A program made the translations under genes and the position numbers. Shown here piece by piece: positions 1 to 15,126 of a DNA stretch of 64,000 bases. Position 1 is the first letter of the stretch; every line of letters begins with the position of its first letter. Under the pieces are notes generated by a model. It did no database searches, was not told the DNA's origin, and saw only the letters and a program-made list of their open reading frames with translations. Origin of the DNA: an archaeon (GTDB lineage Archaea; Aenigmatarchaeota; Aenigmatarchaeia; QMZP01; JAFGSV01); NCBI GenBank assembly GCA_028279705.1, contig JANQNF010000016.1:1-64000 (forward strand), written 5' to 3'.

Positions 1-205
1 TCGACGTCGAACAACGAGCCATCTTCCATTTCTAGTGGCGTCACTCGCTCTGCGGTAGCTTCGTAATACCACCGACCAGACTCTAGCTCTTTGAACACAG
101 AGCACGGATTGAACTCACCGCAAGGGCAAGGTTCGTGTGTGCCGTCTTCGCAATCACGGATGCTGCAAAGTTTCACTGTCTGATGCTTCATGTAGTGCCT
201 CGTAC

Positions 206-1054
206 TTAGGACTGTTTGCCTGTTTCTTCCATCTCTAGCTGCTGCTCGTCCTCTTCCAAGTCGATATCGTACCAGTCATCATCGAGCAGACCCATGACAT
301 ACTGGAACGGAGCTAGGTGCTCTTCGATTCTGATTCCACTTCGCAACATGCGCTCGGGATGATACTGAACGCCGCCAACGAGCGTGTTGTTCGGACCATC
401 TTCGTGTGACGGCAACGTGAGCATGATAGCTTCCAGCATCTTTGCTTCTTCGTTGCTGCGTGACCATCCGAGAACCGAATCGTCTTCACGAATCCAGTCA
501 CCCTTACGGGTCTTACCCTTCATCATGAAGCCCTGATGGTGGAAAGAGTTAATGGGAATTACTTTACCCATCAACTGTCTCAGGATGCCACGATTGGTCA
601 TCTTGTGAACCGGGTTGTCGCCGGTAATCTCTTTGCCACCCTGCGAGTGAGCAATGGTAACATCCTTGTACTTATTGATTTCCTGCAACAGCGTGAAACC
701 GTTGAAGATACCAATAAGCTGGAAACCGCGACAGATTCCGAAGATAGGCTTGGCACGACGCAAGAAAGCGTAGTAAAGCTGTTTTTCGAAAACATCGCGT
801 ACAATATTGCAGTTCGTAGCACCTTGATAATCAAGGTCTTCGCCGTACAATAATGGGTTGATATCTTTGCCGCCGCTCAGGAGTAGACCGTCCATGCTAT
901 CCGCGATGGCTTCTACGTCCATTTCTGGGCAAACGATGAATGGGCTTGCGCCCGCTGCGACGACGAAGTTCACGTAGTCCATGTTACACATGGCTCGTGT
1001 CATCTGGGGCTTGCCCATGTACTCCATCTCGCACGTTACTGCGATTCTTTTCAT
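206..1054 (-). CDS. class I glutamine amidotransferase-like protein (peptidase C26 / gamma-glutamyl hydrolase-like)
   Basis: 282 aa ORF; nucleophile elbow GICRGFQL, downstream HHQ and QYHPE motifs typical of type-1 GATase/C26 hydrolases. Confidence 0.65.
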   Translation of the reverse strand: MKRIAVTCEMEYMGKPQMTRAMCNMDYVNFVVAAGASPFIVCPEMDVEAIADSMDGLLLSGGKDINPLLYGEDLDYQGATNCNIVRDVFEKQLYYAFLRRAKPIFGICRGFQLIGIFNGFTLLQEINKYKDVTIAHSQGGKEITGDNPVHKMTNRGILRQLMGKVIPINSFHHQGFMMKGKTRKGDWIREDDSVLGWSRSNEEAKMLEAIMLTLPSHEDGPNNTLVGGVQYHPERMLRSGIRIEEHLAPFQYVMGLLDDDWYDIDLEEDEQQLEMEETGKQS

Positions 1055-1377
1055 TGTTTAGTCGATGGCCTTAAGTGGTGAGAAATTCTCTGTATCATTA
1101 CGTTACCGATGCGGTAACTTAAGCCGCCCTCTTGTGGGGGAACTAGTTTTACTTCGTAACTATTCCAAATTTGACCTTTGGTTATACCAACGATTCGTCC
1201 TATGTCCGCCGATATGCCGCTGAGCGGTCCGCCTGTTTCTATGATAACCATTTCGCCTAAAATTAGTTCGTGTTCAAGCGGAAATGGTTTGGCTACATAG
1301 CTTCTACCGCCAATCCGAATTGTTCCAGTGGCATTGTCGCCTAGGAATTTTTTCAGCGCAAGATTTTTGGTCGACAT
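1051..1377 (-). CDS. hypothetical protein
   Basis: 108 aa ORF, start/stop overlap with neighbours on same strand (operon-like tiling). Confidence 0.45.
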   Translation of the reverse strand: MSTKNLALKKFLGDNATGTIRIGGRSYVAKPFPLEHELILGEMVIIETGGPLSGISADIGRIVGITKGQIWNSYEVKLVPPQEGGLSYRIGNVMIQRISHHLRPSTKQ

Positions 1378-1389
1378 AAAAATAGGGCA

Positions 1390-1761
1390 CTAGGACGTGC
1401 CCTTTGTCTTCGCTTTCTTTACTTTGCGGAAAATACACTGAACCGATGACAGTGGTACGTAAGATGGCTGTCTAGACACAACGCTCTTATTCTGCACCCG
1501 TCCAATGAAAGGCAGAATGTTGATTGTGGTAAAAAACCAATCGTGGAATCCTTGTTCCCAATCGGACTCTGTGATGTATCCGATACGAAACTCGTTCTTG
1601 ATGAAGAATCCGATTACGTCTCCGTCTTCCGGGTCATTCTTCCACTTGTATACAGCCCTATAGACGTTTCCGTCTCCTAGAACTATATACAGCTTTTCTT
1701 TCTTGCAGACCTTGCCTAGAATATTAGCGTAGTGGCCTGCAATTGGGTTTACCTTTGACAT
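1390..1761 (-). CDS. hypothetical protein
   Basis: 123 aa ORF tiled between neighbouring minus-strand genes. Confidence 0.45.
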   Translation of the reverse strand: MSKVNPIAGHYANILGKVCKKEKLYIVLGDGNVYRAVYKWKNDPEDGDVIGFFIKNEFRIGYITESDWEQGFHDWFFTTINILPFIGRVQNKSVVSRQPSYVPLSSVQCIFRKVKKAKTKGTS

Positions 1762-1770
1762 TGTGCTTGT

Positions 1771-3390
1771 TTATACAGCAGCTTCTTCCGCCTGATGCTG
1801 GTCGAGCATGTCTTGCTGGAACTGTCTAAGTTTAGGCGAAAGAACATCAACTTCACCTTTAATTCCATAGCTCGGCTGAACCTTCTGGAAGCTATCGAAT
1901 TCTTCGATGGTTCTCTGAGAGATAGTAGCGAAACTTTCGTTCAGCGGCCTGAAACCTTCGAAGTCAGGGTTGTTGCATCGGCGCAATACGGGGTCAAAGT
2001 ACAACACACGAGCATCTTTGTCATCAGATACTTCCGATGTGTGGAATACCGAAGGACCAGTGAAGCACGCAACACCATCGCGTACTAGAACAGTCTTGCC
2101 CGGCACACTCATCTTTGCCGGAGTGTCGGATAGCTTGCAAACGATTTCATCTTCCGAACCAGCAGCACACAACTTGTATGCGCTTGAGAAGATATCTCGT
2201 GTGGAAGTATTACGCAGCCAGCCACCTACACCAAAGATACCCCAGCCGACGCTGTTGAAACCTTCATCGAATAGACCGCCGAAGACGTCGTCAACCTTGT
2301 GGGGGTTCATCGAGTCGCCCTGAATGAATCGAAGGTTAGTGGCGCTGGCACGCTCTGCTCCATCGTGTAGCCCAGCTTCGTATGCCTGTTGGGCGATAAA
2401 CAAACAGTTCTCGTAGAAGTCTCCGCTGTCGGGCCTAGCTACGATGGTTCCCGCTGCTCGCTGTGCCATGGCTTTCAGATGGTTGCGAACAGCACGGTGG
2501 AAGTTGTAGCAGTCGGCAACATAGCTTGCGATACCGCCATTTGTATCAGCACCAAAGATAGCTTCGTAAGCTTCCTCTTCATTTAGATGGCCCTGAACAA
2601 TACGATGAGCAAGAGCCAAGATGCTAGTTCCTGTCGGACGCTCTGCTCCGCGCTCCATAGCAGCAAAAGCCGCATTGAACGTGTCTGTGCCATGGAACAC
2701 CAGCAGGTGAGCCATGCCGAGCAGCTCAGACTCTTCTGCACAAGAGCTTGCCCGCATACCGAAGTCATGAATGAAGAATCGAGCCATCGCATCGAACTCT
2801 TTGATATCGTCGGTGGTCAACTCATCCATGCCGATGTTGTACTCGTTGTATTTGTTTCTACCAAACTCTTCTCGAATTCGGTTTAACCAATGGCGGCAGA
2901 TGGTGGCACGAGCACTCATGGTGCTAACCATGCCAAGCATGACAGCTTCAATGTGTGCAGCAATTTCGCCAAATCCCTTACCCATTGATTCAACCTGCAC
3001 AACCGGTTCGTACGGGAAGAAAGTCGAACCTTCCGGTAGTGCAGTAATACGAATGGGGAGAAAGCCGTGACATTCATCAACGACTCTTCTCCACGTTTTC
3101 TCAGGGAAATGCAGAGGTCCACCAAAGCTATGGGCTGTCGCCATGAATTCTTTGGCAGCGTCAATGTCTTCGTGAGTAATCCTCTCCCACAGATGACGAC
3201 GAACGAACTCACTCAAGCCGTAGAAGACCATACGACTGTCTTCTGCAACATTAAGCAAATCATCTGAATCTAGAGGAGAAATACGGTTGGTCAGATTGTA
3301 CACTGATTTCTCAACCGCGCGTTCGCCAGCAAACGCTTCACCTGAAATGGTGTAGGCATCTGCCAGCATCGGCAAAGGTACTTTTCTCAT
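1771..3390 (-). CDS. nadV: nicotinamide phosphoribosyltransferase (NAMPT/NadV-like)
   Basis: 539 aa; N-terminal MLADAYTISG-like start, HDFGMR, DSGD and IQGDS motifs as in NAMPT family; SD-like AAGGTAGG upstream. Confidence 0.8.
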   Translation of the reverse strand: MRKVPLPMLADAYTISGEAFAGERAVEKSVYNLTNRISPLDSDDLLNVAEDSRMVFYGLSEFVRRHLWERITHEDIDAAKEFMATAHSFGGPLHFPEKTWRRVVDECHGFLPIRITALPEGSTFFPYEPVVQVESMGKGFGEIAAHIEAVMLGMVSTMSARATICRHWLNRIREEFGRNKYNEYNIGMDELTTDDIKEFDAMARFFIHDFGMRASSCAEESELLGMAHLLVFHGTDTFNAAFAAMERGAERPTGTSILALAHRIVQGHLNEEEAYEAIFGADTNGGIASYVADCYNFHRAVRNHLKAMAQRAAGTIVARPDSGDFYENCLFIAQQAYEAGLHDGAERASATNLRFIQGDSMNPHKVDDVFGGLFDEGFNSVGWGIFGVGGWLRNTSTRDIFSSAYKLCAAGSEDEIVCKLSDTPAKMSVPGKTVLVRDGVACFTGPSVFHTSEVSDDKDARVLYFDPVLRRCNNPDFEGFRPLNESFATISQRTIEEFDSFQKVQPSYGIKGEVDVLSPKLRQFQQDMLDQHQAEEAAV

Positions 3391-3393
3391 AAC

Positions 3394-4488
3394 CTACCTT
3401 TTATCTGTGGACGAGATGCGCTGGAATTTCTCATCCATGGTGGCGAATGAGCACAGCGCACGAAGCGTAGGCTCAATCTTTTCAATGTCAGCTTCGTCAG
3501 TTAGACGATGGAACACCAAGAACTTATTGCCATTTTCTTTCATCGCAGCAATAAAATCTTGATATTCGAAGTTTTCGTAGTACCGTTCCCAGTCTCCGAT
3601 ACGGAGAATAGTATCGAACCCAACTACGATAGTGCTATTGTTTAGCCAGCGAGCTTTGTCGCAGAATCTTGCGTTGTTTGAAACCGCAATCCACTGTACG
3701 GGCTTAAACCCATCAATGGCTCCGACTAACTTTAGATATCTCTCCTGAAATTGAAGAATATCTAGGTCTGCTTTGTCCGCGTTTCGTACGCTCAATTCCA
3801 ACATGACCGACTGGCCGGTAATCTCGTGCGCTTTCTGGGCCATGGCTGCGTGGCCGTCGTGCCACGGATTGAACGACCCCGGGAAAAGAACTACGGGAGC
3901 TAAATCCTTTGGTAGTGCCACGGGTACGAATGAACCGTCGTCAGGTCGTGTGAGATTCATGCGAGAACTGCGTGAATCGAACATTTCCCAAATCAGCGGA
4001 CTAGCTTCGATGTACTGCTTTGTATCGTTGAGCTTATTCATTAGACCCAACACTTCACCTAAAGCTAGGTAGATGTAAGAAGTAACAATCTCTTCTTGCT
4101 CTTCTCTGTAGTAGTCATCGCTGAACTCCCTAGTGTAGTAGAATAGAGAGTTTGTACCGCGAATGGCAATGTGGAAGAAATGGCGGCGACCTTCCCGCTC
4201 GGGACCAGCCTTACGCAGAGTAGCTGTGACACCTACGCCGTAGTCGTTTGAGTCGCAGAGTCGATATGCTTTATCTGCAAGAAGCAAAGCGGCCTCCCGA
4301 GAACAATACTTCTCAGGCTGGCCCGCAAAGCAGTCGAATAGCTCAGAAGCATATGGAACCACAGCGCCATTGAAGACGCTACTAGCGCCACCGGGTGCTA
4401 AAAAGCTATCGATGAACTTAGTGCCGCCTCCTGTAATTGCTACAGAAAACTTCTTACCAGCTTCAATGATTTGTTCGCGCAGATTCAT
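3394..4488 (-). CDS. bifunctional PncC/CinA-C-like domain + NMN adenylyltransferase
   Basis: 364 aa; N-terminal VAITGGG...GASSVFNGAVVPYASE resembles CinA-C/PncC (AESCTGG...GFVTYSNE); C-terminal LFPGSFNPWHDGH is the nucleotidyltransferase (H/T)xGH motif of NMNAT. Confidence 0.75.
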   Translation of the reverse strand: MNLREQIIEAGKKFSVAITGGGTKFIDSFLAPGGASSVFNGAVVPYASELFDCFAGQPEKYCSREAALLLADKAYRLCDSNDYGVGVTATLRKAGPEREGRRHFFHIAIRGTNSLFYYTREFSDDYYREEQEEIVTSYIYLALGEVLGLMNKLNDTKQYIEASPLIWEMFDSRSSRMNLTRPDDGSFVPVALPKDLAPVVLFPGSFNPWHDGHAAMAQKAHEITGQSVMLELSVRNADKADLDILQFQERYLKLVGAIDGFKPVQWIAVSNNARFCDKARWLNNSTIVVGFDTILRIGDWERYYENFEYQDFIAAMKENGNKFLVFHRLTDEADIEKIEPTLRALCSFATMDEKFQRISSTDKR

Positions 4489-4772
4489 TTTTCGTTAATC
4501 CTAACAGCCATCTCTCCTTCCACGTCTTCTAAGATTAGAAAGATGCTGTTTCCGTTTAGAACCGTAATCTTTAGATTGGTGACATGGAGTAAGACAAAGT
4601 CTTTGTTTATCCTAGTCACCGTGAATTTAGATTCAGGTGTTGCTTCGGTGATAGTAGTCCACTCACCGTATTTGGCTTTACTCTCTACAGGCTTGTCTAG
4701 CTTGTAGTCAGTCGGTATATCCATGGTGGCACATCCGACTAGGAGTAGGAGCGCAAGCATTAAAGCTTTCAT
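4485..4772 (-). CDS. putative lipoprotein
   Basis: 95 aa; signal peptide with lipobox LLVGC. Confidence 0.5.
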   Translation of the reverse strand: MKALMLALLLLVGCATMDIPTDYKLDKPVESKAKYGEWTTITEATPESKFTVTRINKDFVLLHVTNLKITVLNGNSIFLILEDVEGEMAVRINEK

Positions 4773-4909
4773 AGTTTAGGACAGGGAAAGGTCAGGTCCG
4801 CTTTTTAACGTACGAAAAGCGGCAAAACGTTTTTCGGGATTCCCTGTATCTCAGTCGGCACTTAGTCCGATACGGCCCTATGTAAGCCGCTCGATATCAT
4901 CCCGAATAA

Positions 4910-4985
4910 TGGTGGCGGGGGTGGGACTCGAACCCACGACCTTCAGCGTATGAGGCTGACGAGCTACCAACTGCTCCACCCCGCG
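4910..4985 (-). tRNA. tRNA-Met (CAT), initiator-like
   Basis: 76 nt cloverleaf on minus strand; anticodon loop CUCAUAC; 5' half CGCGGGGUGGAGCAG identical to E. coli tRNA-fMet; unpaired C1:C72; encoded CCA. Confidence 0.8.
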
Positions 4986-4988
4986 GTC

Positions 4989-5234
4989 TTAATCTTTGAA
5001 GAGGTACGGGTAGTACCACATATAGAGGTATTGTCTGATTTCGTAACCAGAAACTTCCCCGTCATCTATAACAACAATCAATGCGCCTACTACACCAACA
5101 AAAGGTGCAATAGTCCAAGAAATGAGACCGTATTGGAATATAGTTACGATGAATTTGACTAGGAATGTTATAAGTTTTGCGATGAAGTCCATTATCCCGG
5201 AATCTTCTTGTATTTGACGTATTCTGCGTTGCAA
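4989..5234 (-). CDS. small membrane protein
   Basis: 81 aa ORF with hydrophobic segments. Confidence 0.4.
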   Translation of the reverse strand: MQRRIRQIQEDSGIMDFIAKLITFLVKFIVTIFQYGLISWTIAPFVGVVGALIVVIDDGEVSGYEIRQYLYMWYYPYLFKD

Positions 5235-5488
5235 TGTAGCTGCAACTCACCACTAACGGGGTCAACAATCTGACCACGAGAATCCCTACTACGCAGAGCG
5301 GTGAACAGAACATCTCGCTGTGTGACGATGCCGTGCGAGTCGAAATGTTCTAACATTAGTTCGAACGTCTCGGCAGCAGGCCCACCGTGGTCTTTCAACT
5401 TCTTTATGAAAGACATAGCAAGATTGAACTTATCAAACTTTGCGTGTTCTCTGTCGCCCAGACCATTTCTATAGAAAACAATGAACAT
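5192..5488 (-). CDS. hypothetical protein
   Basis: 98 aa ORF between tRNA-Met and tmRNA. Confidence 0.4.
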   Translation of the reverse strand: MFIVFYRNGLGDREHAKFDKFNLAMSFIKKLKDHGGPAAETFELMLEHFDSHGIVTQRDVLFTALRSRDSRGQIVDPVSGELQLHCNAEYVKYKKIPG

Positions 5489-5560
5489 TTGTTATGCCCG
5501 ACGTATTAGGGATATAGTAAAGAAACTCTGTTTTCGCAACCCTATTTCTCGGATTATATT

Positions 5561-5953
5561 TGGTGGAGGTGCCGGGAATCGAACCCGGGTGCTGCATAAG
5601 TGTCGGGGTAGGCTCTACACGTTTATCAGGGTCTTTCACACTAACGCAGTTTGGTATACCCTGCAAACTCACTTCGTCGTCCTTAACGTGGACCCATTCG
5701 CCGGTCTATTTCCCGGTGCCATCTGTCTACTTCCAGCGTCACCCGTATTTCTTTTACCTAGGTGATACAGGATACCTAGCGTCGGAACCTTTAGGCTGCG
5801 ACGAGAGCAGGGGTGCCGAGGAGTGCCTCAGCGTCAGCCATGCTCAAAGAGTTGGGAATGCCAACTATTGGTTTAGTCCGTTTTAAGGTAGCCTCGGACC
5901 AACTACCACGTGCTCCTACTTCGTCTTCTTACCAGTCGATACCTTTCACCCCC
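5561..5953 (-). ncRNA. ssrA: tmRNA (SsrA)
   Basis: minus-strand RNA starting GGGGGUGAAAGGUAUCGAC and ending GGUUCGAUUCCCGGCACCUCCACCA (tRNA-like domain); internal tag reading frame GCU GAC ... GUC GCA GCC UAA giving ADAEALLGTPALVAA. Confidence 0.8.
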
Positions 5954-5959
5954 ATGTAT

Positions 5960-6172
5960 CTATACGTCACTTGTTTCTATCAACCATGGCCATAGTAATG
6001 ACTTGAACATCCTGCGCCATCTGGATTCTTTACATCCAATAGTGCTCACGTAGGAAACCCCAGCAACCACGAAATAAGCACCGATAATTGCACACATGAT
6101 TATCGTAAGCCATTCCTGAACAGACAGGCTGTTGTAATTCATGCTATTATTTATGCCACCCCATACGGGCAA
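5960..6172 (-). CDS. small membrane protein
   Basis: 70 aa ORF, one TM helix; weak. Confidence 0.3.
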   Translation of the reverse strand: MPVWGGINNSMNYNSLSVQEWLTIIMCAIIGAYFVVAGVSYVSTIGCKESRWRRMFKSLLWPWLIETSDV

Positions 6173-6629
6173 CAGTGTTTTCTAGAATCTTGAAAAGCTG
6201 AGCGTCAATACCGAAACGGTCTTTCGCCTTCTTGAGACTCTGCATGATGTTACCGTCGTGCTGACGAGCAGAAGAAGCCTTCCAGTCTACCAGCATCTCG
6301 ATAACATCGAGCAAGTCCATATCGTTTACACCCTCCGGATAATGCTCCGGGTGGTGGGTGTTCTTCGCGTAGTGGTGTTCCAGAGCAGGCTTAAGCAGCT
6401 TAAGCGATTCCTGATACTCTGGACTACCATAGGTCAAGCCAGCCAGTCGGGCGCTGAACTCGTCAAAGAGTTCCTTTTCCGGACTGGATAGCTTTGACTG
6501 GTCGTGTTCCAAAGCCCTCTGCTGAAGGTTCTGAATTACTTCCAGAAGCAGACGTTGGACCATATGAATATGCTCCCACGTTGCAGGACGCGAGTCCTTT
6601 CTGGGCTTCTGTCTGCGTTCTTCGTCCAT
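6147..6629 (-). CDS. hypothetical protein
   Basis: 160 aa ORF, His-rich helical protein. Confidence 0.55.
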   Translation of the reverse strand: MDEERRQKPRKDSRPATWEHIHMVQRLLLEVIQNLQQRALEHDQSKLSSPEKELFDEFSARLAGLTYGSPEYQESLKLLKPALEHHYAKNTHHPEHYPEGVNDMDLLDVIEMLVDWKASSARQHDGNIMQSLKKAKDRFGIDAQLFKILENTVARMGWHK

Positions 6630-6630
6630 G

Positions 6631-6966
6631 TTATTTGATATCGTTGAATTTTGCTCTAGGCATTCTATGCCAGAATCTACCCACTTCCTTAAAAGTCGGT
6701 CTATCTTCTAAGGAAGTAATCATCTCTGTATTGAAACCGCGCTTCTTTCTAAAGCGCATGATGATTTTAACGGGAGTTCTTCTCCCGGGCTCTTTAACCG
6801 AAACTGTTCCTTGTTCAATGCGAACAATTCTATAAAGGGCTCGGAGAGCATGGTTGAATTTGCGGTAATACCGTAGACGCTTGGTTCCATCTTGCTTTAC
6901 TGCATTCATAATGAAGTAAGGCTTGGTAGCGTCTAGGTCCGTCTTTTTTACTGCTCTCGGGTCCAT
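6631..6966 (-). CDS. hypothetical protein
   Basis: 111 aa ORF. Confidence 0.5.
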   Translation of the reverse strand: MDPRAVKKTDLDATKPYFIMNAVKQDGTKRLRYYRKFNHALRALYRIVRIEQGTVSVKEPGRRTPVKIIMRFRKKRGFNTEMITSLEDRPTFKEVGRFWHRMPRAKFNDIK

Positions 6967-7139
6967 CCTTGATTATCCAAATCAATCGGGTTTGGCATTT
7001 TTACGTAAATGTCGGTTGCGACGATTTTACCGTCTTTCTCTAGTCGGGAGACAAGACGACCTGTTTCGTCATAACCGACGAAAAGGACCGCGCTAGGGTT
7101 CTTAGTGTGAACGTATCGTCTTAATTTAGATGGTTTCAT
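6948..7139 (-). CDS. hypothetical protein
   Basis: 63 aa ORF. Confidence 0.35.
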   Translation of the reverse strand: MKPSKLRRYVHTKNPSAVLFVGYDETGRLVSRLEKDGKIVATDIYVKMPNPIDLDNQGWTREQ

Positions 7140-7178
7140 TGATTTGAGCGGTAAGTGTATATTATACCCGAATCTGGA

Positions 7179-7442
7179 TTATATTACACTAACTTTCTCT
7201 TGATTTCTGTGCTGAATCAGCACGCGCTCTACGTCCACCACTCGGCTCCCCCACTGGTTGAATTTGTAGCGGAGTAGATAGATAGAGTCTACGCTCAAAT
7301 CATCTTTGCTGAGTTGGACGTTGAATTTACGTTCTCCCTTCAGTCCAACAACAGACCAGACCTTATAGAGTTCGATTACAACGATTACGTGGAATCCTAA
7401 CTCTTCGGCCTTTTTAACGACGTCTTTAGGGAATAGAGTCAT
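7179..7442 (-). CDS. hypothetical protein
   Basis: 87 aa ORF. Confidence 0.45.
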   Translation of the reverse strand: MTLFPKDVVKKAEELGFHVIVVIELYKVWSVVGLKGERKFNVQLSKDDLSVDSIYLLRYKFNQWGSRVVDVERVLIQHRNQEKVSVI

Positions 7443-7449
7443 GGTTCTC

Positions 7450-7758
7450 CTAGAAACCGCAGAACATCCTCTCTACTTTTCGAATGTCTCGGTTTATTTC
7501 GGTCGAATGCCTACTGAAATACGAAACAGAGCAACGACCGCATTCGCCTTTTCTGGCGTCACTAACCGGTCTTACTTTGCACGAACTGCACATAGGCATG
7601 AGGTCGTCTCCCGGTTTTTCCACTGGTTCCCATTTAGGGCATCCGGGTTTTTGGGGGAGTTTAGTCTTAGCCGCTTTAGCTCTAGCTTTTTCAAGCTGCC
7701 TATCGTAGCGACCTTGTGATGACCGTCTTGGTTTTTTACGCTTGCGTCTTCTGCCCAT
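7450..7758 (-). CDS. basic zinc-ribbon protein
   Basis: internal Met start chosen to avoid overlap with 7736..8122; K/R-rich N-terminus, CSSC...CGRC motif. Confidence 0.4.
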   Translation of the reverse strand: MGRRRKRKKPRRSSQGRYDRQLEKARAKAAKTKLPQKPGCPKWEPVEKPGDDLMPMCSSCKVRPVSDARKGECGRCSVSYFSRHSTEINRDIRKVERMFCGF

Positions 7759-8122
7759 CTTTCTTTCTTTCGCCGCAGGTGGGACACACGGCGTTTCTCT
7801 CGGTGGTAGACTTACTGCCATCCCCATCACTAGACCTAGCAAGAATCTTGAGGTAGCCGTTCCACCGAAGCTGGTTGAGAAATCGTTCAATTTCCCGTGC
7901 TTTCTTTATTTGACGATTCACCCGACGTGTCTGTCGAACACTGGGCGTAATGATGATTTTTCCGTCAGTGGTTTTGTAGACTACGCGCAGTTTGTGCTTC
8001 TTAGCATAGTCTTCAGTTTTATTGACAAGAAAAACCCTACCTTGTTTATTTTTGATGAAGAGATTATCGAACTCTTCTTCGTGAAGACACTCCACACCAT
8101 GTTCATCTTTGAAATAACCCAT
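7736..8122 (-). CDS. hypothetical protein
   Basis: 128 aa ORF with C-terminal CPTCG zinc-ribbon-like motif. Confidence 0.5.
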   Translation of the reverse strand: MGYFKDEHGVECLHEEEFDNLFIKNKQGRVFLVNKTEDYAKKHKLRVVYKTTDGKIIITPSVRQTRRVNRQIKKAREIERFLNQLRWNGYLKILARSSDGDGSKSTTERNAVCPTCGERKKDGQKTQA

Positions 8123-8141
8123 GATACTTCTCCGTGATTGC

Positions 8142-8366
8142 TTAACGCGACCGTTTGTTGGCTCGATTAGCTAGACGCTTAACCTCGTCAGCGTTACGAG
8201 CATCGTTGTTGATGATAGCAATTTCCGGTGCGGTTTTGTGTGAGAAAACCATCATACCGGAATATGCAGTAACGTCGGAGCAATCGACGCAACAACGCGG
8301 AACTTTACCTTCGTCAATGAGTTTGGCTCTGGCTTCTGGAATTTCTCGGCCACATACGCAGTTCAT
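8142..8366 (-). CDS. TraR/DksA-like C4 zinc-finger protein
   Basis: 74 aa; CxxC...CCVDC motif pattern. Confidence 0.5.
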   Translation of the reverse strand: MNCVCGREIPEARAKLIDEGKVPRCCVDCSDVTAYSGMMVFSHKTAPEIAIINNDARNADEVKRLANRANKRSR

Positions 8367-8597
8367 GCATTCTCCTCTACAATTAGATGAACCGTGGAGT
8401 CAAGTTTTTGATGCGCTGGTTTTATACTGTCTGACACACAATTGGTCACAACAGTCCTCGCTTCTCTACTCCTCAACTCCACGGGTTTAGCAGACGCGCT
8501 CACGTTCCTGAAATACAGACAGCTTACGACTATGGTATTTCGTTGGCTTGCCCAAGGCTGTCGCGCGTACTGTCTACTGTGGGCGTTCGGTTTCCAT

Positions 8598-8693
8598 CGG
8601 CAGGGCTCGAACCTGCAATGCAGCACAACGTACTACATCGGTGGCACAGACAGTCCACCTGCGTATACCATAGAGATACACCTTGCTTCCTCA
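8598..8693 (-). other. tRNA-like element (non-canonical)
   Basis: minus-strand T-arm GCAGGUUCGAGCCCUGC followed by acceptor-like CGAUGG; complementary CCAUCG about 120 nt upstream; no canonical D/anticodon arms found. Confidence 0.25.
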
Positions 8694-8720
8694 GTGATAT
8701 CTCAATTCCGCCACGATGGC

Positions 8721-9362
8721 TTAGTAGTGTCTTCCGAGCAAGATATCTTTCAATACCCTCTCCAGTTTTTCAACGCAGATATCGTTCGGCAATGACCGAT
8801 ATTCTACACGACCATCGTGGTGTACGTCGTAGAATCCGGGCCTACGCTTAGCTGCTTTGATTTCGTCTGCGAATGCCTCGTCCATCTTCTTGATGAAAGG
8901 AACAAAATCCCACATACTGTTAAAGGGGACGGTGACTCCGTTTTTCGTGTGGGTCAGCGGAGCGGTGATGTTCACATGAAAAGCCGCGATACCTTCTGTC
9001 ATCCTATTACGATGACACGTGTGTCCGTAAAGGTTACGTTCGGTAACGAGGTCTTTCTTAAAGCGACGTCTGGCTAAGTCGCGCAGCTTGCGAGAGATGG
9101 GCATTACGGGTGCTAGCACCGGCTCCCAAGTGAATGTTCCTTCGGGAGTGACCCTTGAACAATTCTTCAAGATACGTGAAAGCCTGACATCCTCTACGTT
9201 CAGAAGATGAATGGCTTCCAGCACATCGTGAGACGGCCTGCTGCGTACTTCGAACAACCACCCACATTCGTCGTGTGGTGCGTGGCTCGGCACGAGAGTA
9301 ATCTCTCCGTCGCTTCTCCGACAGAAATATTCTCGCTCAAAGCCGAACTTGTATCTACTCAT
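8721..9362 (-). CDS. hypothetical protein (candidate GS-like amidoligase)
   Basis: 213 aa; N-terminal KFGFEREYF resembles the Mg-binding first strand of GCS2/YbdK-type carboxylate-amine ligases; weak. Confidence 0.5.
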   Translation of the reverse strand: MSRYKFGFEREYFCRRSDGEITLVPSHAPHDECGWLFEVRSRPSHDVLEAIHLLNVEDVRLSRILKNCSRVTPEGTFTWEPVLAPVMPISRKLRDLARRRFKKDLVTERNLYGHTCHRNRMTEGIAAFHVNITAPLTHTKNGVTVPFNSMWDFVPFIKKMDEAFADEIKAAKRRPGFYDVHHDGRVEYRSLPNDICVEKLERVLKDILLGRHY

Positions 9363-9621
9363 CGTGAATTTCTCTCGTTCTTTCCAATACTACAGGGATT
9401 TCTTCCGGCAAATTGGAGTCTAGGTCCATGTTGGCGATTATACGCAGTCTACGGTAGAACGTATACTTAGGTTTGGTTGACCTAAGTATAGATTTTACCT
9501 CATTCCACAAAGACTCGGGCTCGTCTTCTTCGAAAGGAATGAAAGATGCTTTGTCATTCAAAGTGTTGCGTACTTCGTAGCAAAGCAACCCATTGACCTT
9601 TAGTTGGCGGACTTGTATCAT
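9355..9621 (-). CDS. hypothetical protein
   Basis: internal Met start (MIQVRQLK) chosen because upstream part of ORF covers terminator hairpins and a small membrane peptide gene in another frame. Confidence 0.4.
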   Translation of the reverse strand: MIQVRQLKVNGLLCYEVRNTLNDKASFIPFEEDEPESLWNEVKSILRSTKPKYTFYRRLRIIANMDLDSNLPEEIPVVLERTREIHDE

Positions 9622-9782
9622 CGCATAAAGAAAGCCCAAGCTAGGAGGAAAGCACCAAAGAATGCTAGTCCACCCAGATGGGGTTCGTTCATGTTTTCGT
9701 AGCTGATGGCTACAGAGATTAATGCAGCGCCAATCCACAGCAATGCATTTAGCAGAAATTTCTTCATAGCATCTCTCTAAAA

Positions 9783-9815
9783 TTAGAAAGGGGGAGCCTT
9801 TCGGCTCCCCCAATA
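9783..9815 (-). terminator. putative intrinsic terminator
   Basis: GC hairpin GGGGGAGCC-UUUC-GGCUCCCCC followed on minus strand by UUUCUAAUUUU. Confidence 0.45.
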
Positions 9816-9912
9816 GGGCGCTTAGCGCCTCCACCACTCGGTTTTAAGTTCCGAGAAACTGGGCCTGCCGAATATCGGCAGGGTCCACCACTGAGTTTAT
9901 AGTTCTCAGAAA

Positions 9913-10905
9913 CTACTTGCCGGTGAGCCCGAGTTCGAGCAGTAGCGGCGAGTTGGAAGGCAGAATACGGATGTTGGCGAAGTTCTGCGCGAGAATCGGC
10001 AGGGCTTCGGCCTTCTTGCGACGTTCGTACAGTTCGACGTCGAACGTCATTGCGTCCTTGGCCTCCTGTAGCTTTCTCGCAGCATCGGCTTTAGACTGGG
10101 CGATGGTGACCTGAAGCTGTGCTTCGGCAGCTTGGTCCTCACGACGCTTGTCGTTCGCCAGCTTCTTGTTGGCCTCGGCAACGATTGCAGCTTCAGAGAC
10201 AACTTGGTCGTCGATAGCCGCCTGAATCTTCGCGTTGTCGTAGGTTAGACCCTCGGACGAGCCGAACTGGGTAATGGTGATACCCATGACTTCGTACTCA
10301 GCGATAAGGGCCGTCTTGGCCGCCTTGAAGATGGTCGTCTTGGACTTCTTGCAGTCTTCCAGATTCAGCTTGCCGAAGGCGTCGGATACGAGAGACAGCG
10401 CCGTGCTGCGAATCGGTCCGTCGATGATATCCTCCAACTGCTGACCACCGAAGTAGTACAGGAAGCGGGCGGTGTCCTTTTCGTCGATGCGCGCCTGAAT
10501 GGTCGCACCAACGCCGAAACCAACCGAGTCGAGAGACTCGACGTGTAGCTTCTGGAAGGCTTCGCTTGTGCCGCTGTCCGAATCGTCGGTCCACTCTCTG
10601 TGGACGGGCGCTCGTGAAATCCTGATGACACGAGCGGTAGGAATCCACTCGTAGCTGAACCATGCGCGGCCAGTGCTACGCTTGCGCTGCGGAAGGATGA
10701 TTCGCTTTGCGCCGACCTTCTTCTCTTCAAGAAACTCGATGCTCTCGAACTTGGCCTGACCGCTCTTCGTGTCACCTTCCAGCTTGATGAGGAAAGCGGT
10801 CTCGTCGGGCTCGACTTCGACGGCCTTCTCCACCTGATAGGCACCACAGCCTACCGAAGTCACCGCAAAGATAGCGATGACGAGTGAAAGTAGAAACTTT
10901 CGCAT
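9913..10905 (-). CDS. SPFH/band-7 domain lipoprotein
   Basis: 330 aa; signal peptide with lipobox VGC; central SPFH-like region and long Ala/Glu/Lys-rich coiled coil; locally high GC; AGGAG SD 12 nt upstream. Confidence 0.7.
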   Translation of the reverse strand: MRKFLLSLVIAIFAVTSVGCGAYQVEKAVEVEPDETAFLIKLEGDTKSGQAKFESIEFLEEKKVGAKRIILPQRKRSTGRAWFSYEWIPTARVIRISRAPVHREWTDDSDSGTSEAFQKLHVESLDSVGFGVGATIQARIDEKDTARFLYYFGGQQLEDIIDGPIRSTALSLVSDAFGKLNLEDCKKSKTTIFKAAKTALIAEYEVMGITITQFGSSEGLTYDNAKIQAAIDDQVVSEAAIVAEANKKLANDKRREDQAAEAQLQVTIAQSKADAARKLQEAKDAMTFDVELYERRKKAEALPILAQNFANIRILPSNSPLLLELGLTGK

Positions 10906-10925
10906 TTTTCTGTCTGCTCCTAAAT

Positions 10926-11189
10926 TTAGGCGTTCTTAACGGGAACGAGCTTCCGGTATACGACCGGAGCCCAGAGGCAAATTAGCCAGAGCGCCATCAG
11001 GGCGAGCACGTAGCCCGAGTAATCCCGTGACGCAACACGAGCGACACCATACTCCAAGTCACCACCGTTAAGCTGGTCAACTGCGAGGTCGGCCTGCTCT
11101 TGCGGCATGAAGTTGTTGTACACGCTCATGAAGAATGCCGTAACCAGAACAATGGCTACGGTCCAGAAGATACGTCTGCGATTTGTCAT
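10926..11189 (-). CDS. small membrane protein
   Basis: internal Met start MTNRRRIFW; two hydrophobic helices. Confidence 0.45.
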   Translation of the reverse strand: MTNRRRIFWTVAIVLVTAFFMSVYNNFMPQEQADLAVDQLNGGDLEYGVARVASRDYSGYVLALMALWLICLWAPVVYRKLVPVKNA

Positions 11190-11978: not shown

Positions 11979-12053
11979 TGGTACCCCGCCTAGGAGTCGA
12001 ACCCAGATTCTCGGTTTAGAAGACCGATGCCTTATCCATTAGACGAACGGGGC
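11979..12053 (-). tRNA. tRNA-Arg (TCT)
   Basis: minus-strand cloverleaf GCCCCGU...CGGUC-UUCUAAA-ACCGA...GGGUUCGACUCC...ACCA; anticodon UCU. Confidence 0.8.
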
Positions 12054-15030: not shown

Positions 15031-15126
15031 TGTCCAGTTTACGCCAGTATGGATGCATACTTTCCACTACTCGGCGCGTTGCTCTTTTCTTTTGTACTTT
15101 CTCGAAGTACAGGTCTCTATATCTTC

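What the first reader, a model, noticed from the sequence alone, without database searches (positions are those of the whole stretch)
206..4488. NAD+ reconstitution module (NAMPT plus PncC-like/NMNAT fusion) with adjacent class-I amidotransferase
A NadV-type nicotinamide phosphoribosyltransferase is followed by an NMN adenylyltransferase (GSFNPWHDGH) whose N-terminal 200 aa resemble the CinA-C/PncC NMN-deamidase fold (TGG...GASSVFNGAVVPYASE). A Nampt + Nmnat pair is the described phage NARP2 counter-defence against NAD+-depleting immunity (Thoeris, DSR, SIR2-HerA, etc.). The PncC-like fusion and the co-oriented class-I GATase/gamma-glutamyl hydrolase-like gene are additions not part of the described pathway. 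They could mean an amidated/deamidated branch or sequestration of NMN-like signalling molecules.
Basis: partly seen in the sequence, partly recalled or inferred. Interest (0 to 1): 0.7.

Follow-up and report, generated by a model that had tools for sequence, protein, structure and literature searches.

The report
Phage NAD+ salvage pair, unusual adenylyltransferase
A large uncultivated phage carries a two-gene set that most likely rebuilds the cofactor NAD+ from nicotinamide (a known phage trick against NAD+-destroying bacterial immunity), but its second enzyme is an undescribed type: a NadD-like adenylyltransferase fused to an apparently inactive NMN-deamidase-like domain.

Summary
All genes are on the minus strand. 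1771-3390 encodes a NAMPT with intact catalytic motifs. 3394-4488 encodes a 364-aa fusion of a PncC/CinA-fold domain and a NadD-like HIGH-motif nucleotidyltransferase. 206-1054 encodes a Peptidase_C26 class-I amidotransferase.

The NAMPT plus adenylyltransferase pair works like NARP2, but the adenylyltransferase shows no sequence similarity to the NadM-Nudix type Nmnat that defines NARP2. The NAMPT falls outside both the KVP40-type and the NARP1-type clades.

The PncC-like domain keeps the phosphate-binding residues (S36, Y46, R128). It has Thr at the nucleophile position and never has the essential catalytic Lys (0 of 216 family members). I therefore predict a ligand-binding pseudo-deamidase, not a deamidated branch.

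The fusion is not special to this phage. More than 1,600 50%-identity clusters match it across cellular and viral sequences. Of 51 non-redundant IMG/VR loci with the long form, 29 have a NAMPT within 10 kb. No full-length copy exists in 50,697 GenBank phage records.

The amidotransferase belongs to a different conserved gene block, and its adjacency is incidental.

Verdict: a new variant of a known kind, of moderate interest.

The parts
4485..4772 (-). 95-aa ORF with a lipoprotein-like signal peptide (MKALMLALLLLVGC...). Its stop overlaps the start of the fusion gene by 4 nt. The function is unknown, and membership of the module is not shown.
   Evidence: sequence. No Pfam, PHROG or PADLOC hit. 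No tblastn hit in related loci.
3394..4488 (-). 364-aa fusion protein: PncC/CinA-fold domain plus NadD-like HIGH-motif nucleotidyltransferase. It is the predicted NMN adenylyltransferase of the module.
   Evidence: Pfam. AF2 model, pLDDT 89. Foldseek against PDB. Family of more than 1,644 clusters. Conserved adjacency to NAMPT in viral loci.
4048..4488 (-). N-terminal PncC/CinA-like domain (residues 1-147), predicted non-catalytic. T19 lies at the Ser-nucleophile position and F51 at the catalytic-Lys position. The binding residues S36, Y46 and R128 are kept.
   Evidence: HMMER alignment to 2a9s. Census of 216 family members aligned to E. coli PncC. Residue roles are from PMC5384747.
3895..4047 (-). 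Linker and small beta sub-domain (residues 148-198), with lower model confidence (pLDDT 65-78). A similarly long N-terminal extension precedes the HIGH motif in the stand-alone 190-220-aa viral versions.
3397..3894 (-). C-terminal nucleotidyltransferase domain (residues 199-364) with GSFNPWHDGH (204-213) and ISSTDKR (358-364). The nearest solved folds are NadD (NaMN/NMN adenylyltransferases).
1771..3390 (-). 539-aa nicotinamide phosphoribosyltransferase (NadV/NAMPT type). It starts 3 nt after the stop of the fusion gene.
   Evidence: It is 69% identical to the NAMPT that follows the fusion gene in related phage contig L001.
1390..1761 (-). 123-aa orphan ORF downstream of NAMPT. The function is unknown.
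   Evidence: No family hits. No homologue in any fetched locus.
1384..1403 (-). Terminator-like hairpin (7 bp stem with 5 G-C pairs, then ATTTTTAT) at the end of the 123-aa ORF. It may mark the end of the NAD transcription unit.
   Evidence: This is a consensus scan only: 8 sites were found against 4.9 +/- 2.2 expected in shuffles.
1051..1377 (-). 108-aa orphan ORF whose stop overlaps the start of the amidotransferase gene (ATGA). The function is unknown.
   Evidence: No hits. Not similar to the 110-aa ORF at the same position in L002.
206..1054 (-). 282-aa Peptidase_C26 class-I amidotransferase-fold protein (PuuD/SpuA/Lin1909-like gamma-glutamyl hydrolase type). It is part of the finding but NOT part of the NAD module.
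   Evidence: It lies in the conserved backbone block with a roughly 333-aa downstream partner. It is absent next to the fusion gene in all other viral loci except L002.
3..191 (-). 5' end of the gene that follows the amidotransferase and runs off the window. It is the homologue of the 331-335-aa protein that follows C26 in L002, L094 and L095.
   Evidence: (52% identity over 60 aa, E 2e-21).

Best explanation
Genes 3394-4488 and 1771-3390 form a phage NAD+ salvage/reconstitution module that works like NARP2.

Proposed steps:
1. The NAMPT converts nicotinamide, which is released when host NADase effectors or other NAD+ consumers cleave NAD+, plus PRPP into NMN.
2. The C-terminal NadD-like domain of the fusion protein adenylylates NMN with ATP to give NAD+.
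3. The N-terminal PncC-fold domain does not deamidate NMN. It keeps the residues that hold the mononucleotide phosphate (S36, Y46, R128) but lacks the general-base Lys. It most likely acts as a mononucleotide-binding, dimerising or regulatory module that captures NMN for the adenylyltransferase.

The Peptidase_C26 gene and the orphan ORFs are neighbours, not components.

Shown: the domain identities, the conserved motifs, the loss of the Lys, the gene linkage across many viruses, and the independence of C26.

Inferred: the substrates (NMN rather than NaMN, PRPP rather than ADPR-PP), the role of the N-domain, and the counter-defence purpose.
For: NAMPT identity:
- The identity and active-site motifs are confirmed.

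C-terminal domain:
- It carries the HxGH and ISxxxxR motifs.
- Its model is closest to NadD structures (E about 1e-6, aligned over about 182 residues). PPAT matches are weaker (E about 5e-4, rmsd about 8 A).

Gene order and overlaps:
- The fusion and NAMPT genes are 3 nt apart and co-directional.
- The same order recurs in related phage contig L001, with NAMPT 69% and fusion 41% identical.

Linkage across viruses:
- Of 51 non-redundant IMG/VR loci with a long (>=330 aa) family member, 29 carry a NAMPT within 10 kb.
- 26 of those are within 3 kb, 14 are directly adjacent, and 27 of 29 are on the same strand. Protein identity to the query is only 21-35%.
- For comparison, about 3% of GenBank phage records hold any NAMPT homologue (1,560 of 50,697).
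- Stand-alone 190-220-aa versions of the C-domain sit beside the closest NAMPT relatives (L058, L066, L068). The adenylyltransferase half is therefore the constant partner of NAMPT.

Other NAD-related neighbours:
- A Nudix gene cluster, whose representative has a Nudix domain plus an NrtR winged helix, recurs in these loci. Prs genes recur too.
- In two bacterial genomes the family member overlaps an NAD kinase gene.

No NARP1 partner:
- No PRPS/Adps-like gene is detectable in the 64-kb window.

N-domain:
- It has the CinA fold.
- The census of 216 members gives Thr 183, Ala 15 and Ser 13 at the nucleophile position.
- At the Lys position it gives L/F/T/M/V/Q, with no Lys seen.
- Ser is kept in 215, Tyr in 214 and Arg in 216 of 216 at the three binding positions.
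- K63A, S31A and R145A mutants of the A. tumefaciens enzyme are inactive (PMC5384747).

Setting:
- The genomic region is a phage auxiliary/counter-defence region, with T4 Rnl1-like ligase, an HD plus AAA_33 kinase-like protein, HAD_SAK_2 and tRNAs.
Against: - No enzymology exists for any member of the fusion family. I found no description of it in the literature searches.
- At the sequence level the C-domain scores about as well against PPAT (CoaD) as against NadD. Best profile E-values are PPAT 2e-7 and NadD 1.4e-5. NCBIfam gives coaD 7.6e-5 and nadD 7.8e-5, all far below cut-offs.
- Solved NadD enzymes are NaMN adenylyltransferases, so NMN use is not guaranteed.
- The NAMPT lies outside both the KVP40-type Nampt clade and the NARP1 Namat clade in a crude NJ tree. 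Its preference for PRPP over ADPR-PP is therefore unproven.
- A close relative (L002) has the fusion gene with no NAMPT within 8 kb. 22 of 51 viral loci also lack a nearby NAMPT, so the fusion protein can work without a phage NAMPT.
- A Thr at the nucleophile position leaves room for a variant hydrolytic mechanism.
- Only 64 kb of a 175,863-bp contig was visible, so other NAD genes (Adps, NadM, NadR, PnuC) could lie outside the window.
Confidence: 0.6

Rival explanations
1. Deamidated route. The PncC-like domain is an active NMN deamidase that uses Thr19 as nucleophile. It hands NaMN to the NadD-like domain, which makes NaAD, and the host NadE finishes NAD+. Ammonia from the C26 amidotransferase might feed that last step. 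This copies the bacterial NadV-PncC-NadD-NadE route.
For: - The domain order, PncC-like then NadD-like, matches the order of the two reactions.
- Solved NadD enzymes, the nearest folds, are NaMN adenylyltransferases.
- A hydroxyl residue (Thr or Ser) occupies the nucleophile position in 196 of 216 members, and the binding residues are intact.
- A class-I amidotransferase is co-directional about 0.7 kb downstream of the NAMPT gene.
Against: - The Lys needed in both proposed PncC mechanisms is replaced by a hydrophobic residue or Thr in all 216 members. No other acid/base residue is invariant in the N-domain.
- K63A abolishes activity in AtCinA.
- 15 members have Ala at the nucleophile position.
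- Stand-alone C-domains pair with NAMPT without any PncC-like domain.
- C26 is unlinked from the NAD genes in relatives, and it resembles gamma-glutamyl-amine hydrolases rather than synthase-coupled glutaminases.
- The route would depend on host NadE and cost more ATP.
Confidence: 0.15
2. The same chemistry serves a different purpose. The module is a general auxiliary metabolic set that raises NAD+ for phage needs such as redox metabolism or other NAD+-consuming phage and host enzymes. It is not a dedicated counter-defence.
For: - NARP2 raises NAD+ even in cells without a defence system (Osterman et al., bioRxiv 10.1101/2024.02.11.579819).
- The fusion family is widespread in bacteria, where it is next to NAD kinase in two genomes. 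It is a housekeeping-type enzyme borrowed by viruses.
- No defence or anti-defence profile hit was found.
Against: - KVP40 NARP2 was shown to overcome NAD+-depleting defence systems.
- The genes lie in a region with RNA-repair counter-defence genes.
- The two purposes are not mutually exclusive, and sequence alone cannot separate them.
Confidence: 0.3
3. The nucleotidyltransferase domain acts on something other than a pyridine mononucleotide, for example phosphopantetheine or another phosphorylated metabolite. The PncC-like domain binds that other ligand, and the adjacency to NAMPT is coincidental.
For: - The best sequence-profile hits in the PDB are phosphopantetheine adenylyltransferases (2e-7).
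- No NCBIfam equivalog cut-off is reached.
- 22 of 51 viral loci and three of five cellular loci show no NAD gene nearby.
Against: - The PPAT hits cover only the roughly 60-residue HIGH-motif region, while NadD hits extend over the whole domain.
- Foldseek ranks NadD well above PPAT.
- Linkage to NAMPT holds in 29 of 51 divergent viral loci, with Nudix/NrtR-like, Prs and NAD kinase neighbours.
- A separate 175-177-aa CTP_transf_like gene, of a size compatible with PPAT, lies nearby in L003 and L004.
Confidence: 0.08
4. The NAMPT-like protein is a Namat, which uses ADPR-PP as in NARP1. The true partner, an Adps, lies outside the window, and the fusion protein has an accessory role.
For: - The NAMPT does not group with the KVP40-type Nampt clade.
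- Some IMG/VR loci combine a family member, a NAMPT and a PRPS-like gene (L008, L010/L011, L052/L053).
- Only 64 kb of 176 kb was seen.
Against: - The NAMPT does not group with the NARP1 representatives either.
- In NARP1 the Adps and Namat genes are adjacent. Here the neighbours are the fusion gene and an orphan ORF.
- No PRPS-like gene was found in the 64 kb.
- The PRPS-like representative in L052 scores as a canonical Prs (Pribosyltran_N 7e-49).
Confidence: 0.05

Closest known systems
NARP2 (Nampt + Nmnat of Vibrio phage KVP40; Osterman et al. 2024, Lee et al. 2017)
   Same: - It is a two-gene phage set with a NadV-type nicotinamide phosphoribosyltransferase and a HIGH-superfamily adenylyltransferase.
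- The predicted chemistry is the same: nicotinamide + PRPP -> NMN -> NAD+.
- The host is a large phage with T4-like auxiliary genes.
   Different: - The adenylyltransferase is NadD-like by fold and carries an N-terminal PncC-fold domain. The NARP2 enzyme is a NadM-type domain with a C-terminal Nudix domain.
- No pairwise similarity to the Aes508 NadM-Nudix-type protein was found.
- The family is absent as a full-length protein from 50,697 GenBank phage records.
- The NAMPT belongs to a separate lineage in the tree.
- No Nudix gene turned up in the parts of the window I scanned (the finding region and the larger ORFs elsewhere). Nudix/NrtR-like genes do accompany the pair in other viral loci.
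PncC / CinA C-terminal domain NMN deamidases (E. coli PncC, A. tumefaciens CinA 2A9S, T. thermophilus CinA)
   Same: - The fold is the same (Foldseek E 3e-6, target TM 0.70).
- The TGG and PGxS motifs are conserved.
- The phosphate-binding Ser, Tyr and Arg are conserved (S36, Y46, R128).
   Different: - The catalytic Lys is replaced by Phe51, and it is never Lys in 216 relatives.
- The nucleophile Ser is replaced by Thr19.
- The Pfam score is below the gathering threshold.
- The domain is fused to a nucleotidyltransferase rather than standing alone or following a COG1058/MocF domain.
NadD (bacterial nicotinate-mononucleotide adenylyltransferase)
   Same: - It is the nearest solved fold (8aih, 1kaq, 2h29).
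- The GxFxPxHxGH and ISxTxxR motifs are shared.
   Different: - Identity is only 13-19%.
- No NCBIfam NadD equivalog cut-off is reached (about 22 bits against 112-315).
- The protein has a roughly 50-residue N-terminal sub-domain and the PncC-like fusion.
- The predicted substrate from context is NMN rather than NaMN, which is untested.
NARP1 (Adps + Namat) and NARP3 (PnuC + NadR-like; Sci Adv 2026, PMC13464706)
   Same: These are phage strategies that rebuild NAD+ after depletion by host immunity.
   Different: No Adps/PRPS-like gene was found by tblastn across the 64-kb window. PnuC and NadR-type kinase genes were not specifically searched for, and none appeared among the ORFs I scanned. The substrates and enzymes differ.
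PuuD / SpuA / Lin1909 (Peptidase_C26 gamma-glutamyl-amine hydrolases)
   Same: The 282-aa protein at 206-1054 shares the family (Pfam 1e-33; 3fij 9e-17; 6vtv 4e-8) and the Cys-His-Glu triad.
   Different: It belongs to a phage-specific subfamily of about 30 close homologues (50-69% identity) with an acidic C-terminal tail. It is always followed by a roughly 333-aa protein of unknown function. The substrate is unknown, and there is no link to NAD.

Membership tests
NARP2 (phage Nampt + Nmnat) | A NadV/NAMPT-family phosphoribosyltransferase with an intact active site | tested here: met
   PHROG 448 4e-60, Pfam NAPRTase plus NAMPT_N, and 7yqo 2.5e-33. HDFGMR, GTDT, RPDSGD, IQGD and FGVGG are conserved.
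NARP2 (phage Nampt + Nmnat) | The Nampt belongs to the KVP40-type (PRPP-preferring) clade rather than the Namat clade | tested here: inconclusive
   In an NJ tree of 40 sequences, the window NAMPT groups with L001, L012, L019, L059 and L066-68. This lies outside both the KVP40-like/Aeromonas group and the Staphylococcus/FelixO1 NARP1 pair. The tree is crude: BLOSUM62 distances, midpoint root, no support values.
NARP2 (phage Nampt + Nmnat) | An Nmnat homologous to KVP40 Nmnat (NadM-type adenylyltransferase fused to Nudix). The original study used MMseqs2, 2 iterations, E<1e-5. | tested here: not met
   BLASTP against the Aes508 352-aa 'cytidyltransferase' with a C-terminal Nudix domain gives no alignment below E=10. 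tblastn against 50,697 phage records gives only three partial C-domain hits in uncultured huge phages. The iterated MMseqs2 criterion itself was not run.
NARP2 (phage Nampt + Nmnat) | No associated Adps (the partner that defines NARP1) | tested here: met
   No tblastn hit of two Adps/PRPS-like queries or a viral Prs in the 64-kb window. The remaining roughly 112 kb of the contig was not visible.
NARP2 (phage Nampt + Nmnat) | Produces NAD+ from nicotinamide and rescues the phage from NAD+-depleting defence | not testable with these tools
   This needs enzymology and plaque assays.
PncC/CinA NMN deamidase (PF02464) | CinA C-terminal domain fold | tested here: met
   Foldseek 2a9s_B: E 3.3e-6, target TM 0.70, rmsd 3.0 A over 162 columns. 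Profile against 2a9s: 2.3e-5.
PncC/CinA NMN deamidase (PF02464) | Pfam gathering score reached | tested here: not met
   21.2 bits against a cut-off of 23.5. Only 1 of 38 relatives carries a precomputed PF02464 hit.
PncC/CinA NMN deamidase (PF02464) | Ser nucleophile (AtCinA S31, EcPncC S29) | tested here: not met
   Thr19 occupies this position in the window protein. Across 216 members the counts are T 183, A 15, S 13.
PncC/CinA NMN deamidase (PF02464) | General-base Lys (AtCinA K63, EcPncC K61); K63A is inactive | tested here: not met
   Phe51 occupies this position in the window protein. The six commonest residues across 216 members are L 110, F 40, T 30, M 17, V 6, Q 4, and Lys is not among them.
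PncC/CinA NMN deamidase (PF02464) | Mononucleotide phosphate-binding residues (AtCinA S48, Y58, R145) | tested here: met
   S36, Y46 and R128 are kept in 215, 214 and 216 of 216 members.
NadD-type pyridine mononucleotide adenylyltransferase | HIGH-type (H/T)xGH motif and C-terminal ISxxxxR motif | tested here: met
   GSFNPWHDGH at 204-213 and ISSTDKR at 358-364. G204, P208, H213, S360 and R364 are invariant in 34 relatives.
NadD-type pyridine mononucleotide adenylyltransferase | Fold closest to NadD rather than to other cytidylyl/adenylyltransferases | tested here: met
   NadD structures take ranks 1-2 and most of the top 46 (E 1e-6 to 3e-4). PPAT appears only from rank 47 (E about 5e-4, rmsd 8 A). 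No NadM, NadR or archaeal NMNAT appears in the 50 matches listed.
NadD-type pyridine mononucleotide adenylyltransferase | Curated family score (NCBIfam equivalogs) | tested here: not met
   The best NadD models score about 21-22 bits against cut-offs of 112-315, and coaD scores the same.
NadD-type pyridine mononucleotide adenylyltransferase | NMN or NaMN adenylyltransferase activity | not testable with these tools
   Only contextual support exists: linkage to NAMPT, Nudix/NrtR-like, Prs and NAD kinase genes.
Peptidase_C26 / class-I glutamine amidotransferase | Family profile and Cys-His-Glu triad | tested here: met
   PF07722 117 bits (cut-off 20.5). C108 lies in GICRG, and H232 and E234 lie in YHPE.
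   - C26 is found near the fusion gene only in syntenic relative L002 among the fetched viral loci.
- It lies about 18 kb from the NAD genes in the L001/L094 phage.
- Its conserved neighbour is a roughly 333-aa protein downstream.

The most novel reading that the evidence does not exclude
The PncC-fold/NadD-like fusion, together with its stand-alone C-domain form, is a third, so far undescribed class of viral NMN adenylyltransferase. It partners with NAMPT in many uncultivated phages, and possibly in giant-virus MAGs. Its degenerate deamidase domain would act as an NMN (or NAD+/ADPR) sensor or substrate-capture device. Such a device could shield NMN from the host PncC and gate NAD+ resynthesis. 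Under this reading, NAD+ reconstitution in viruses is broader than the NadM and NadR types counted so far.
Probability: 0.4. Interest if true: 0.6.

Novelty: new variant of a known kind. Interest (0 to 1): 0.48.

Why it matters
Surveys of phage NAD+ synthesis recognise only NadM-Nudix and NadR-type adenylyltransferases beside NadV (Iyer et al. 2022, PMC9503650). NARP2 phages are counted by homology to the KVP40 Nmnat (Osterman et al.).

If this NadD-like family is the NMNAT partner of NAMPT in dozens of uncultivated viral lineages, then:
- the prevalence of NAD+ reconstitution among viruses is underestimated;
- homology-based NARP2 detection misses a whole branch.

The family also offers a natural case of a deamidase fold turned into a probable ligand-binding pseudo-enzyme fused to the next enzyme of the pathway. 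It has more than 1,600 uncharacterised sequence clusters in bacteria and viruses.

The practical value is a better anti-defence annotation, and a compact two-gene cassette for testing or engineering phages against NAD+-depleting immunity.

Tried and rejected
- **DNA-level search.** A distant blastn of 1-6000 against phage records matched only the tRNA-Met gene.
- **Unavailable library.** The afdb50 fold library was unavailable, so no UniProt-wide structural neighbours were obtained. BFVD gave one full-length viral match, an unannotated 'cytidyltransferase-like' protein of an uncultured Caudovirales phage.
- **Genome-contig scans.** With A4 only two loci were found, and neither has NAD genes nearby. 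Cellular context therefore rests on five loci.
- **Yeast Pof1 lead.** I raised this from memory as a possible relative. The 2026 JBC paper has no domain information that helps, so I did not pursue it.
- **Orphan ORFs.** PADLOC profiles gave no hit for any of the six proteins. The 123-aa, 108-aa and 95-aa ORFs have no family hits and no homologues in any related locus, so I assign them no role.
Rejected, because only CinA structures match.
- **C26 as the glutaminase for a NadE step.** Rejected on gene-context grounds and on family resemblance to PuuD/SpuA.
- **Assigning the NAMPT to the Nampt or the Namat clade.** The tree placed it outside both.
- **Caveat on the residue census.** Its numbering reproduces the published EcCinA positions Y56, S103 and R142. 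The independent HMMER alignment to 2a9s gives the same residue mapping.

Full report
**1. What is in the sequence**

The region 206-4772 is a tight string of co-directional minus-strand genes. In order they are:
- a 95-aa ORF with a lipoprotein-like signal (4485-4772, overlapping the next start by 4 nt);
- a 364-aa protein (3394-4488);
- a 539-aa protein (1771-3390, starting 3 nt after the previous stop);
- orphan ORFs of 123 aa (1390-1761) and 108 aa (1051-1377);
- a 282-aa protein (206-1054, whose start overlaps the 108-aa ORF stop).

A tRNA-Met gene lies just upstream at 4910-4985.

The window is clearly phage DNA.
- It holds a large terminase (50747-52615) and a portal (52651-54804).
- It holds a T4 Rnl1-like RNA ligase, an HD plus AAA_33 kinase-like protein, a HAD_SAK_2 protein, a metallophosphatase and a radical SAM protein.
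- It holds six tRNA genes.

The proteins are exact matches to genes on a 175,863-bp public contig. No phage record resembles the region at the DNA level, apart from the tRNA.

**2. The NAMPT**

The 539-aa protein is a nicotinamide phosphoribosyltransferase.
- It matches PHROG 448 (4e-60), Pfam NAPRTase plus NAMPT_N, and NCBIfam PRK09198 (7e-56, below its cut-off).
- Its best solved relative is a bacterial NadV-type enzyme, 7yqo (2.5e-33).
- The hallmark stretches HDFGMR, GTDT, RPDSGD, IQGD and FGVGG are conserved.

It is divergent: at most 37% identical to anything in 50,697 phage records.

I built a crude NJ tree with a KVP40-like Nampt, an Aeromonas T4-like one, two NARP1 Namat proteins and 34 NAMPTs from uncultivated viral contigs. 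The two Namat proteins, from Staphylococcus MSA6 and FelixO1, each sit next to a PRPS-like gene. In that tree the window NAMPT falls in a separate lineage, outside both reference groups.

Clade membership therefore cannot settle PRPP against ADPR-PP. Two points argue against NARP1. No PRPS/Adps-like gene is detectable in the 64-kb window. The flanking genes are also not of that type.

**3. The fusion protein**

Pfam sees CTP_transf_like at residues 201-362 (8.6e-9) and CinA at residues 5-125 (2.4e-4, 21.2 bits, just under the cut-off).

An AlphaFold2 model built on 34 relatives is confident (pLDDT 89, pTM 0.84). Foldseek against the PDB splits it cleanly.
- The C-terminal half is most like NadD (8aih, 1kaq, 2h29 and others; E about 1e-6, about 182 aligned positions).
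- The N-terminal half is most like CinA/PncC (2a9s_B: E 3e-6, target TM 0.70, rmsd 3.0 A).
- PPAT appears only from rank 47. No NadM, NadR, LOG or macro structures appear in the 50 matches listed.

At the sequence-profile level the HIGH-motif region scores slightly better against PPAT (2e-7) than against NadD (1.4e-5). No NCBIfam equivalog is reached. The substrate assignment therefore rests on fold and context, not on a curated family match.

The motifs GSFNPWHDGH (204-213) and ISSTDKR (358-364) are present, and their key residues are invariant in relatives.

**4. Is the PncC-like domain a deamidase?**

Mutagenesis of A. tumefaciens CinA showed the following (PMC5384747).
- S31 (nucleophile), K63 (general base) and R145 (phosphate binding) are essential.
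- Y58 is essential as well: Y58A is inactive and Y58F is severely impaired.
- S48 contributes to phosphate binding.
- The alternative asparaginase-like mechanism proposed for the Thermus enzyme also needs the same Lys.

A HMMER alignment of the N-domain profile to 2a9s is ungapped through this region. It maps S31 to T19, S48 to S36, Y58 to Y46 and K63 to F51. The spacing to the next conserved Gly (G68 to G56) confirms the register.

I then aligned 216 family members to E. coli PncC.

| E. coli PncC position | Role | Residues in 216 family members |
|---|---|---|
| S29 | nucleophile | T 183, A 15, S 13 |
| K61 | general base | L 110, F 40, T 30, M 17, V 6, Q 4 (six commonest; no Lys) |
| S46 | phosphate binding | S in 215 |
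| Y56 | phosphate binding | Y in 214 |
| R142 | phosphate binding | R in 216 |

No acidic or basic residue other than this Arg is invariant in the N-domain.

I conclude that the domain keeps the mononucleotide-binding pocket but has lost the canonical catalytic machinery. It reproduces the published residue numbers, and the 2a9s alignment is independent of it.

**5. How common is the fusion, and what does it travel with?**

Close homologues are few: four at 42-59% identity, all on metagenomic contigs. A profile search of 1.84 billion cluster representatives found 1,644 proteins at E<=1e-30. The 150 best listed are nearly all matched over close to their full length. Named examples come from Eisenbacteria, Planctomycetia, Thermoguttaceae, Gammaproteobacteria and Polyangiaceae MAGs. 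The architecture is therefore old and widespread, not an invention of this phage.

In two bacterial genomes the gene overlaps an NAD kinase gene. Three other cellular loci show nothing NAD-related.

In IMG/VR, 80 loci encode relatives. After removing duplicates, the counts are as follows.

| Viral loci with a long (>=330 aa) form | Count |
|---|---|
| Total | 51 |
| NAMPT within 10 kb | 29 |
| NAMPT within 3 kb | 26 |
| NAMPT directly adjacent | 14 |
| NAMPT on the same strand | 27 of 29 |

These proteins are only 21-35% identical to the query. By comparison, about 3% of GenBank phage records contain a NAMPT homologue anywhere.

Another 22 loci carry a stand-alone 190-220-aa version of the C-domain. 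Nine of these have a NAMPT within 3 kb, including the closest relatives of the window's NAMPT (L058, L066, L068; 36-37% identity).

Clustering all neighbouring ORFs showed two further recurrent partners.
- A Nudix family occurs in 27 loci. Its representative has a Nudix domain plus the NrtR winged helix, the ADP-ribose-responsive regulator of bacterial NAD salvage.
- A canonical Prs occurs in 6 loci.

This is the gene company expected of an NMN adenylyltransferase. The adenylyltransferase half is the constant partner of NAMPT.

**6. Relation to described phage pathways**

NARP2 was defined from KVP40 as Nampt plus an Nmnat found by homology to the KVP40 protein. The KVP40 Nmnat is a NadM-type domain fused to Nudix. 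The broad survey by Iyer et al. lists only NadM and NadR as phage adenylyltransferases beside NadV. NARP3 is PnuC plus a NadR-like enzyme.

The window's protein differs from all of these.
- It shows no BLASTP similarity to the NadM-Nudix-type protein of Aeromonas phage Aes508.
- It has no full-length match in 50,697 phage records. Only three partial C-domain hits turned up, all in uncultured huge phages.
- BFVD holds one unannotated full-length relative from an uncultured Caudovirales phage.
- My literature searches found PncC noted as an auxiliary gene in a marine megaphage, but no description of this fusion.

The module therefore works like NARP2 but fails the Nmnat-homology criterion. It is best called a variant with a non-orthologous adenylyltransferase.

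**7. The amidotransferase**

The 282-aa protein is a Peptidase_C26 member with an intact Cys108-His232-Glu234 triad. It is closest to Lin1909, PuuD and SpuA, which are stand-alone gamma-glutamyl-amine hydrolases.

About 30 close homologues (50-69% identity) exist on phage-sized contigs. The gene positions in related phages show that it belongs to the backbone, not to the NAD module.
- In L002, a phage syntenic with the window, the order is PNK-like, Rnl1, Band_7..., fusion gene, small ORF, C26, with no NAMPT.
- In the phage of L001/L094, the fusion plus NAMPT pair sits next to the PNK-like and Rnl1 genes. C26 lies about 18 kb away, behind Band_7.
- In L002, L094 and L095, C26 is always followed by a 331-335-aa protein and, further on, a dCMP deaminase.
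- The window has the start of that same 333-aa gene at 191-3.

The NAD genes move relative to this backbone. None of the other viral loci has a C26 homologue near the fusion gene. A terminator-like hairpin (1403-1384, minus strand) between the 123-aa and 108-aa ORFs may separate the two transcription units, but the scan is not above background.

**8. Most likely mechanism and verdict**

The proposed mechanism has two enzymatic steps.
1. NAMPT turns nicotinamide and PRPP into NMN.
2. The NadD-like domain of the fusion protein turns NMN and ATP into NAD+.

The degenerate PncC-like domain binds a mononucleotide, probably NMN. It serves capture, dimerisation or regulation. PncC enzymes are dimers with a shared site.

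I give this 0.6. The main rival is a deamidated route through NaMN and NaAD that uses a Thr nucleophile (0.15). It is weakened by the universal absence of the Lys and by NAMPT-linked stand-alone C-domains.

Sequence cannot decide whether the purpose is counter-defence or general NAD+ supply. The setting among RNA-repair counter-defence genes and the NARP2 precedent favour counter-defence.

The finding is real and its core reading is right. Its two 'additions' need different verdicts.
- The PncC-like fusion is a genuine, recurrent and undescribed feature of a large enzyme family.
- The amidotransferase is a bystander.

Novelty: a new variant of a known kind. Interest: moderate.

Noticed in passing
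window 13954-16498 and 27560-29080 (minus strand); tRNAs at 4910-4985, 11979-12053, 12651-12726, 20382-20537, 22070-22145: An RNA-repair gene set lies among six tRNA genes. It comprises a T4 Rnl1-like RNA ligase (13954-15030), an HD plus AAA_33 kinase-like protein (15485-16498), a HAD_SAK_2 protein (27560-28141) and a metallophosphatase (28490-29080). It looks like a counter-measure to anticodon nucleases. The same ligase and kinase-like genes neighbour the NAD genes in relatives L001 and L002.
   Followed up: partly
L025 (IMGVR GVMAG-M-3300023174-131) 8380-11131; L033 (GVMAG-M-3300010334-28) 6879-10231: Giant-virus MAG contigs carry a fusion-family gene next to a divergently oriented NAMPT. 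Iyer et al. 2022 reported no evidence of NAD+ salvage in eukaryotic viruses. This could be real or could be binning contamination.
   Followed up: no
L002 8001-10269 (Logan SRR15505517 contig, 58.7 kb): A phage syntenic with the window keeps the fusion gene (45% identity) but has no NAMPT within 8 kb. At that position the fusion gene is followed directly by a 110-aa ORF and C26. The adenylyltransferase may work on host-derived NMN there, or the NAMPT may lie elsewhere on that contig.
   Followed up: partly
L008 10001-14147; L010 10001-15302; L052 10404-16493: Some uncultivated viral contigs have a three-gene set of family member, NAMPT and PRPS-like protein. The L052 representative scores as a canonical Prs. 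This could be a self-sufficient PRPP to NMN to NAD+ cassette, or a hybrid with NARP1-type chemistry.
   Followed up: partly
27 IMG/VR loci, e.g. L055 3161-3892, L046 7850-8542, L050 7677-8408: A Nudix gene family recurs immediately upstream of NAMPT in viral contigs. Its representative has a Nudix domain fused to an NrtR-type winged helix. It might be a viral ADP-ribose-sensing regulator or an ADPR pyrophosphatase for the salvage genes. None was found in the window.
   Followed up: partly
window 4485-4772 (minus strand): A 95-aa ORF with a typical lipoprotein signal (LLLLVGC) is translationally coupled (ATGA overlap) to the fusion gene. It has no homologues in related loci.
   Followed up: no
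window 3-1054 (minus strand); L002 9427-11294; L094 6001-7874; L095 6001-7893: A phage-specific Peptidase_C26 subfamily with an acidic C-terminal tail is always followed by a 331-335-aa protein that has no family match (N-terminus KLCSI..C...FNPCSVF..G.WYYE). A dCMP deaminase lies a few genes on. It may be a nucleotide or gamma-glutamyl-amine metabolic block of unknown function.
   Followed up: partly
window 16891-19018 (minus strand): A radical SAM protein (16891-17976) and an HD_4-domain protein (18473-19018) lie between the RNA-repair genes and a tRNA cluster. Their roles are unknown.
   Followed up: no
window about 45.3-46.4 kb and 50302-54804: A strand switch occurs near 45.5 kb, with a change in GC skew. 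On the plus strand it is followed by a weak sigma-70 region-2-like protein (45670-46428), an ERCC4-type nuclease (50302-50760) directly upstream of the large terminase, and the portal. The major structural proteins beyond the portal have no PHROG match.
   Followed up: no
window 6147-6629 and 9913-10905 (minus strand): A DUF5662 protein (5.5e-33) and an SPFH/Band_7 protein lie here. The Band_7 gene is a conserved landmark in the related phages (L002, L094).
   Followed up: no
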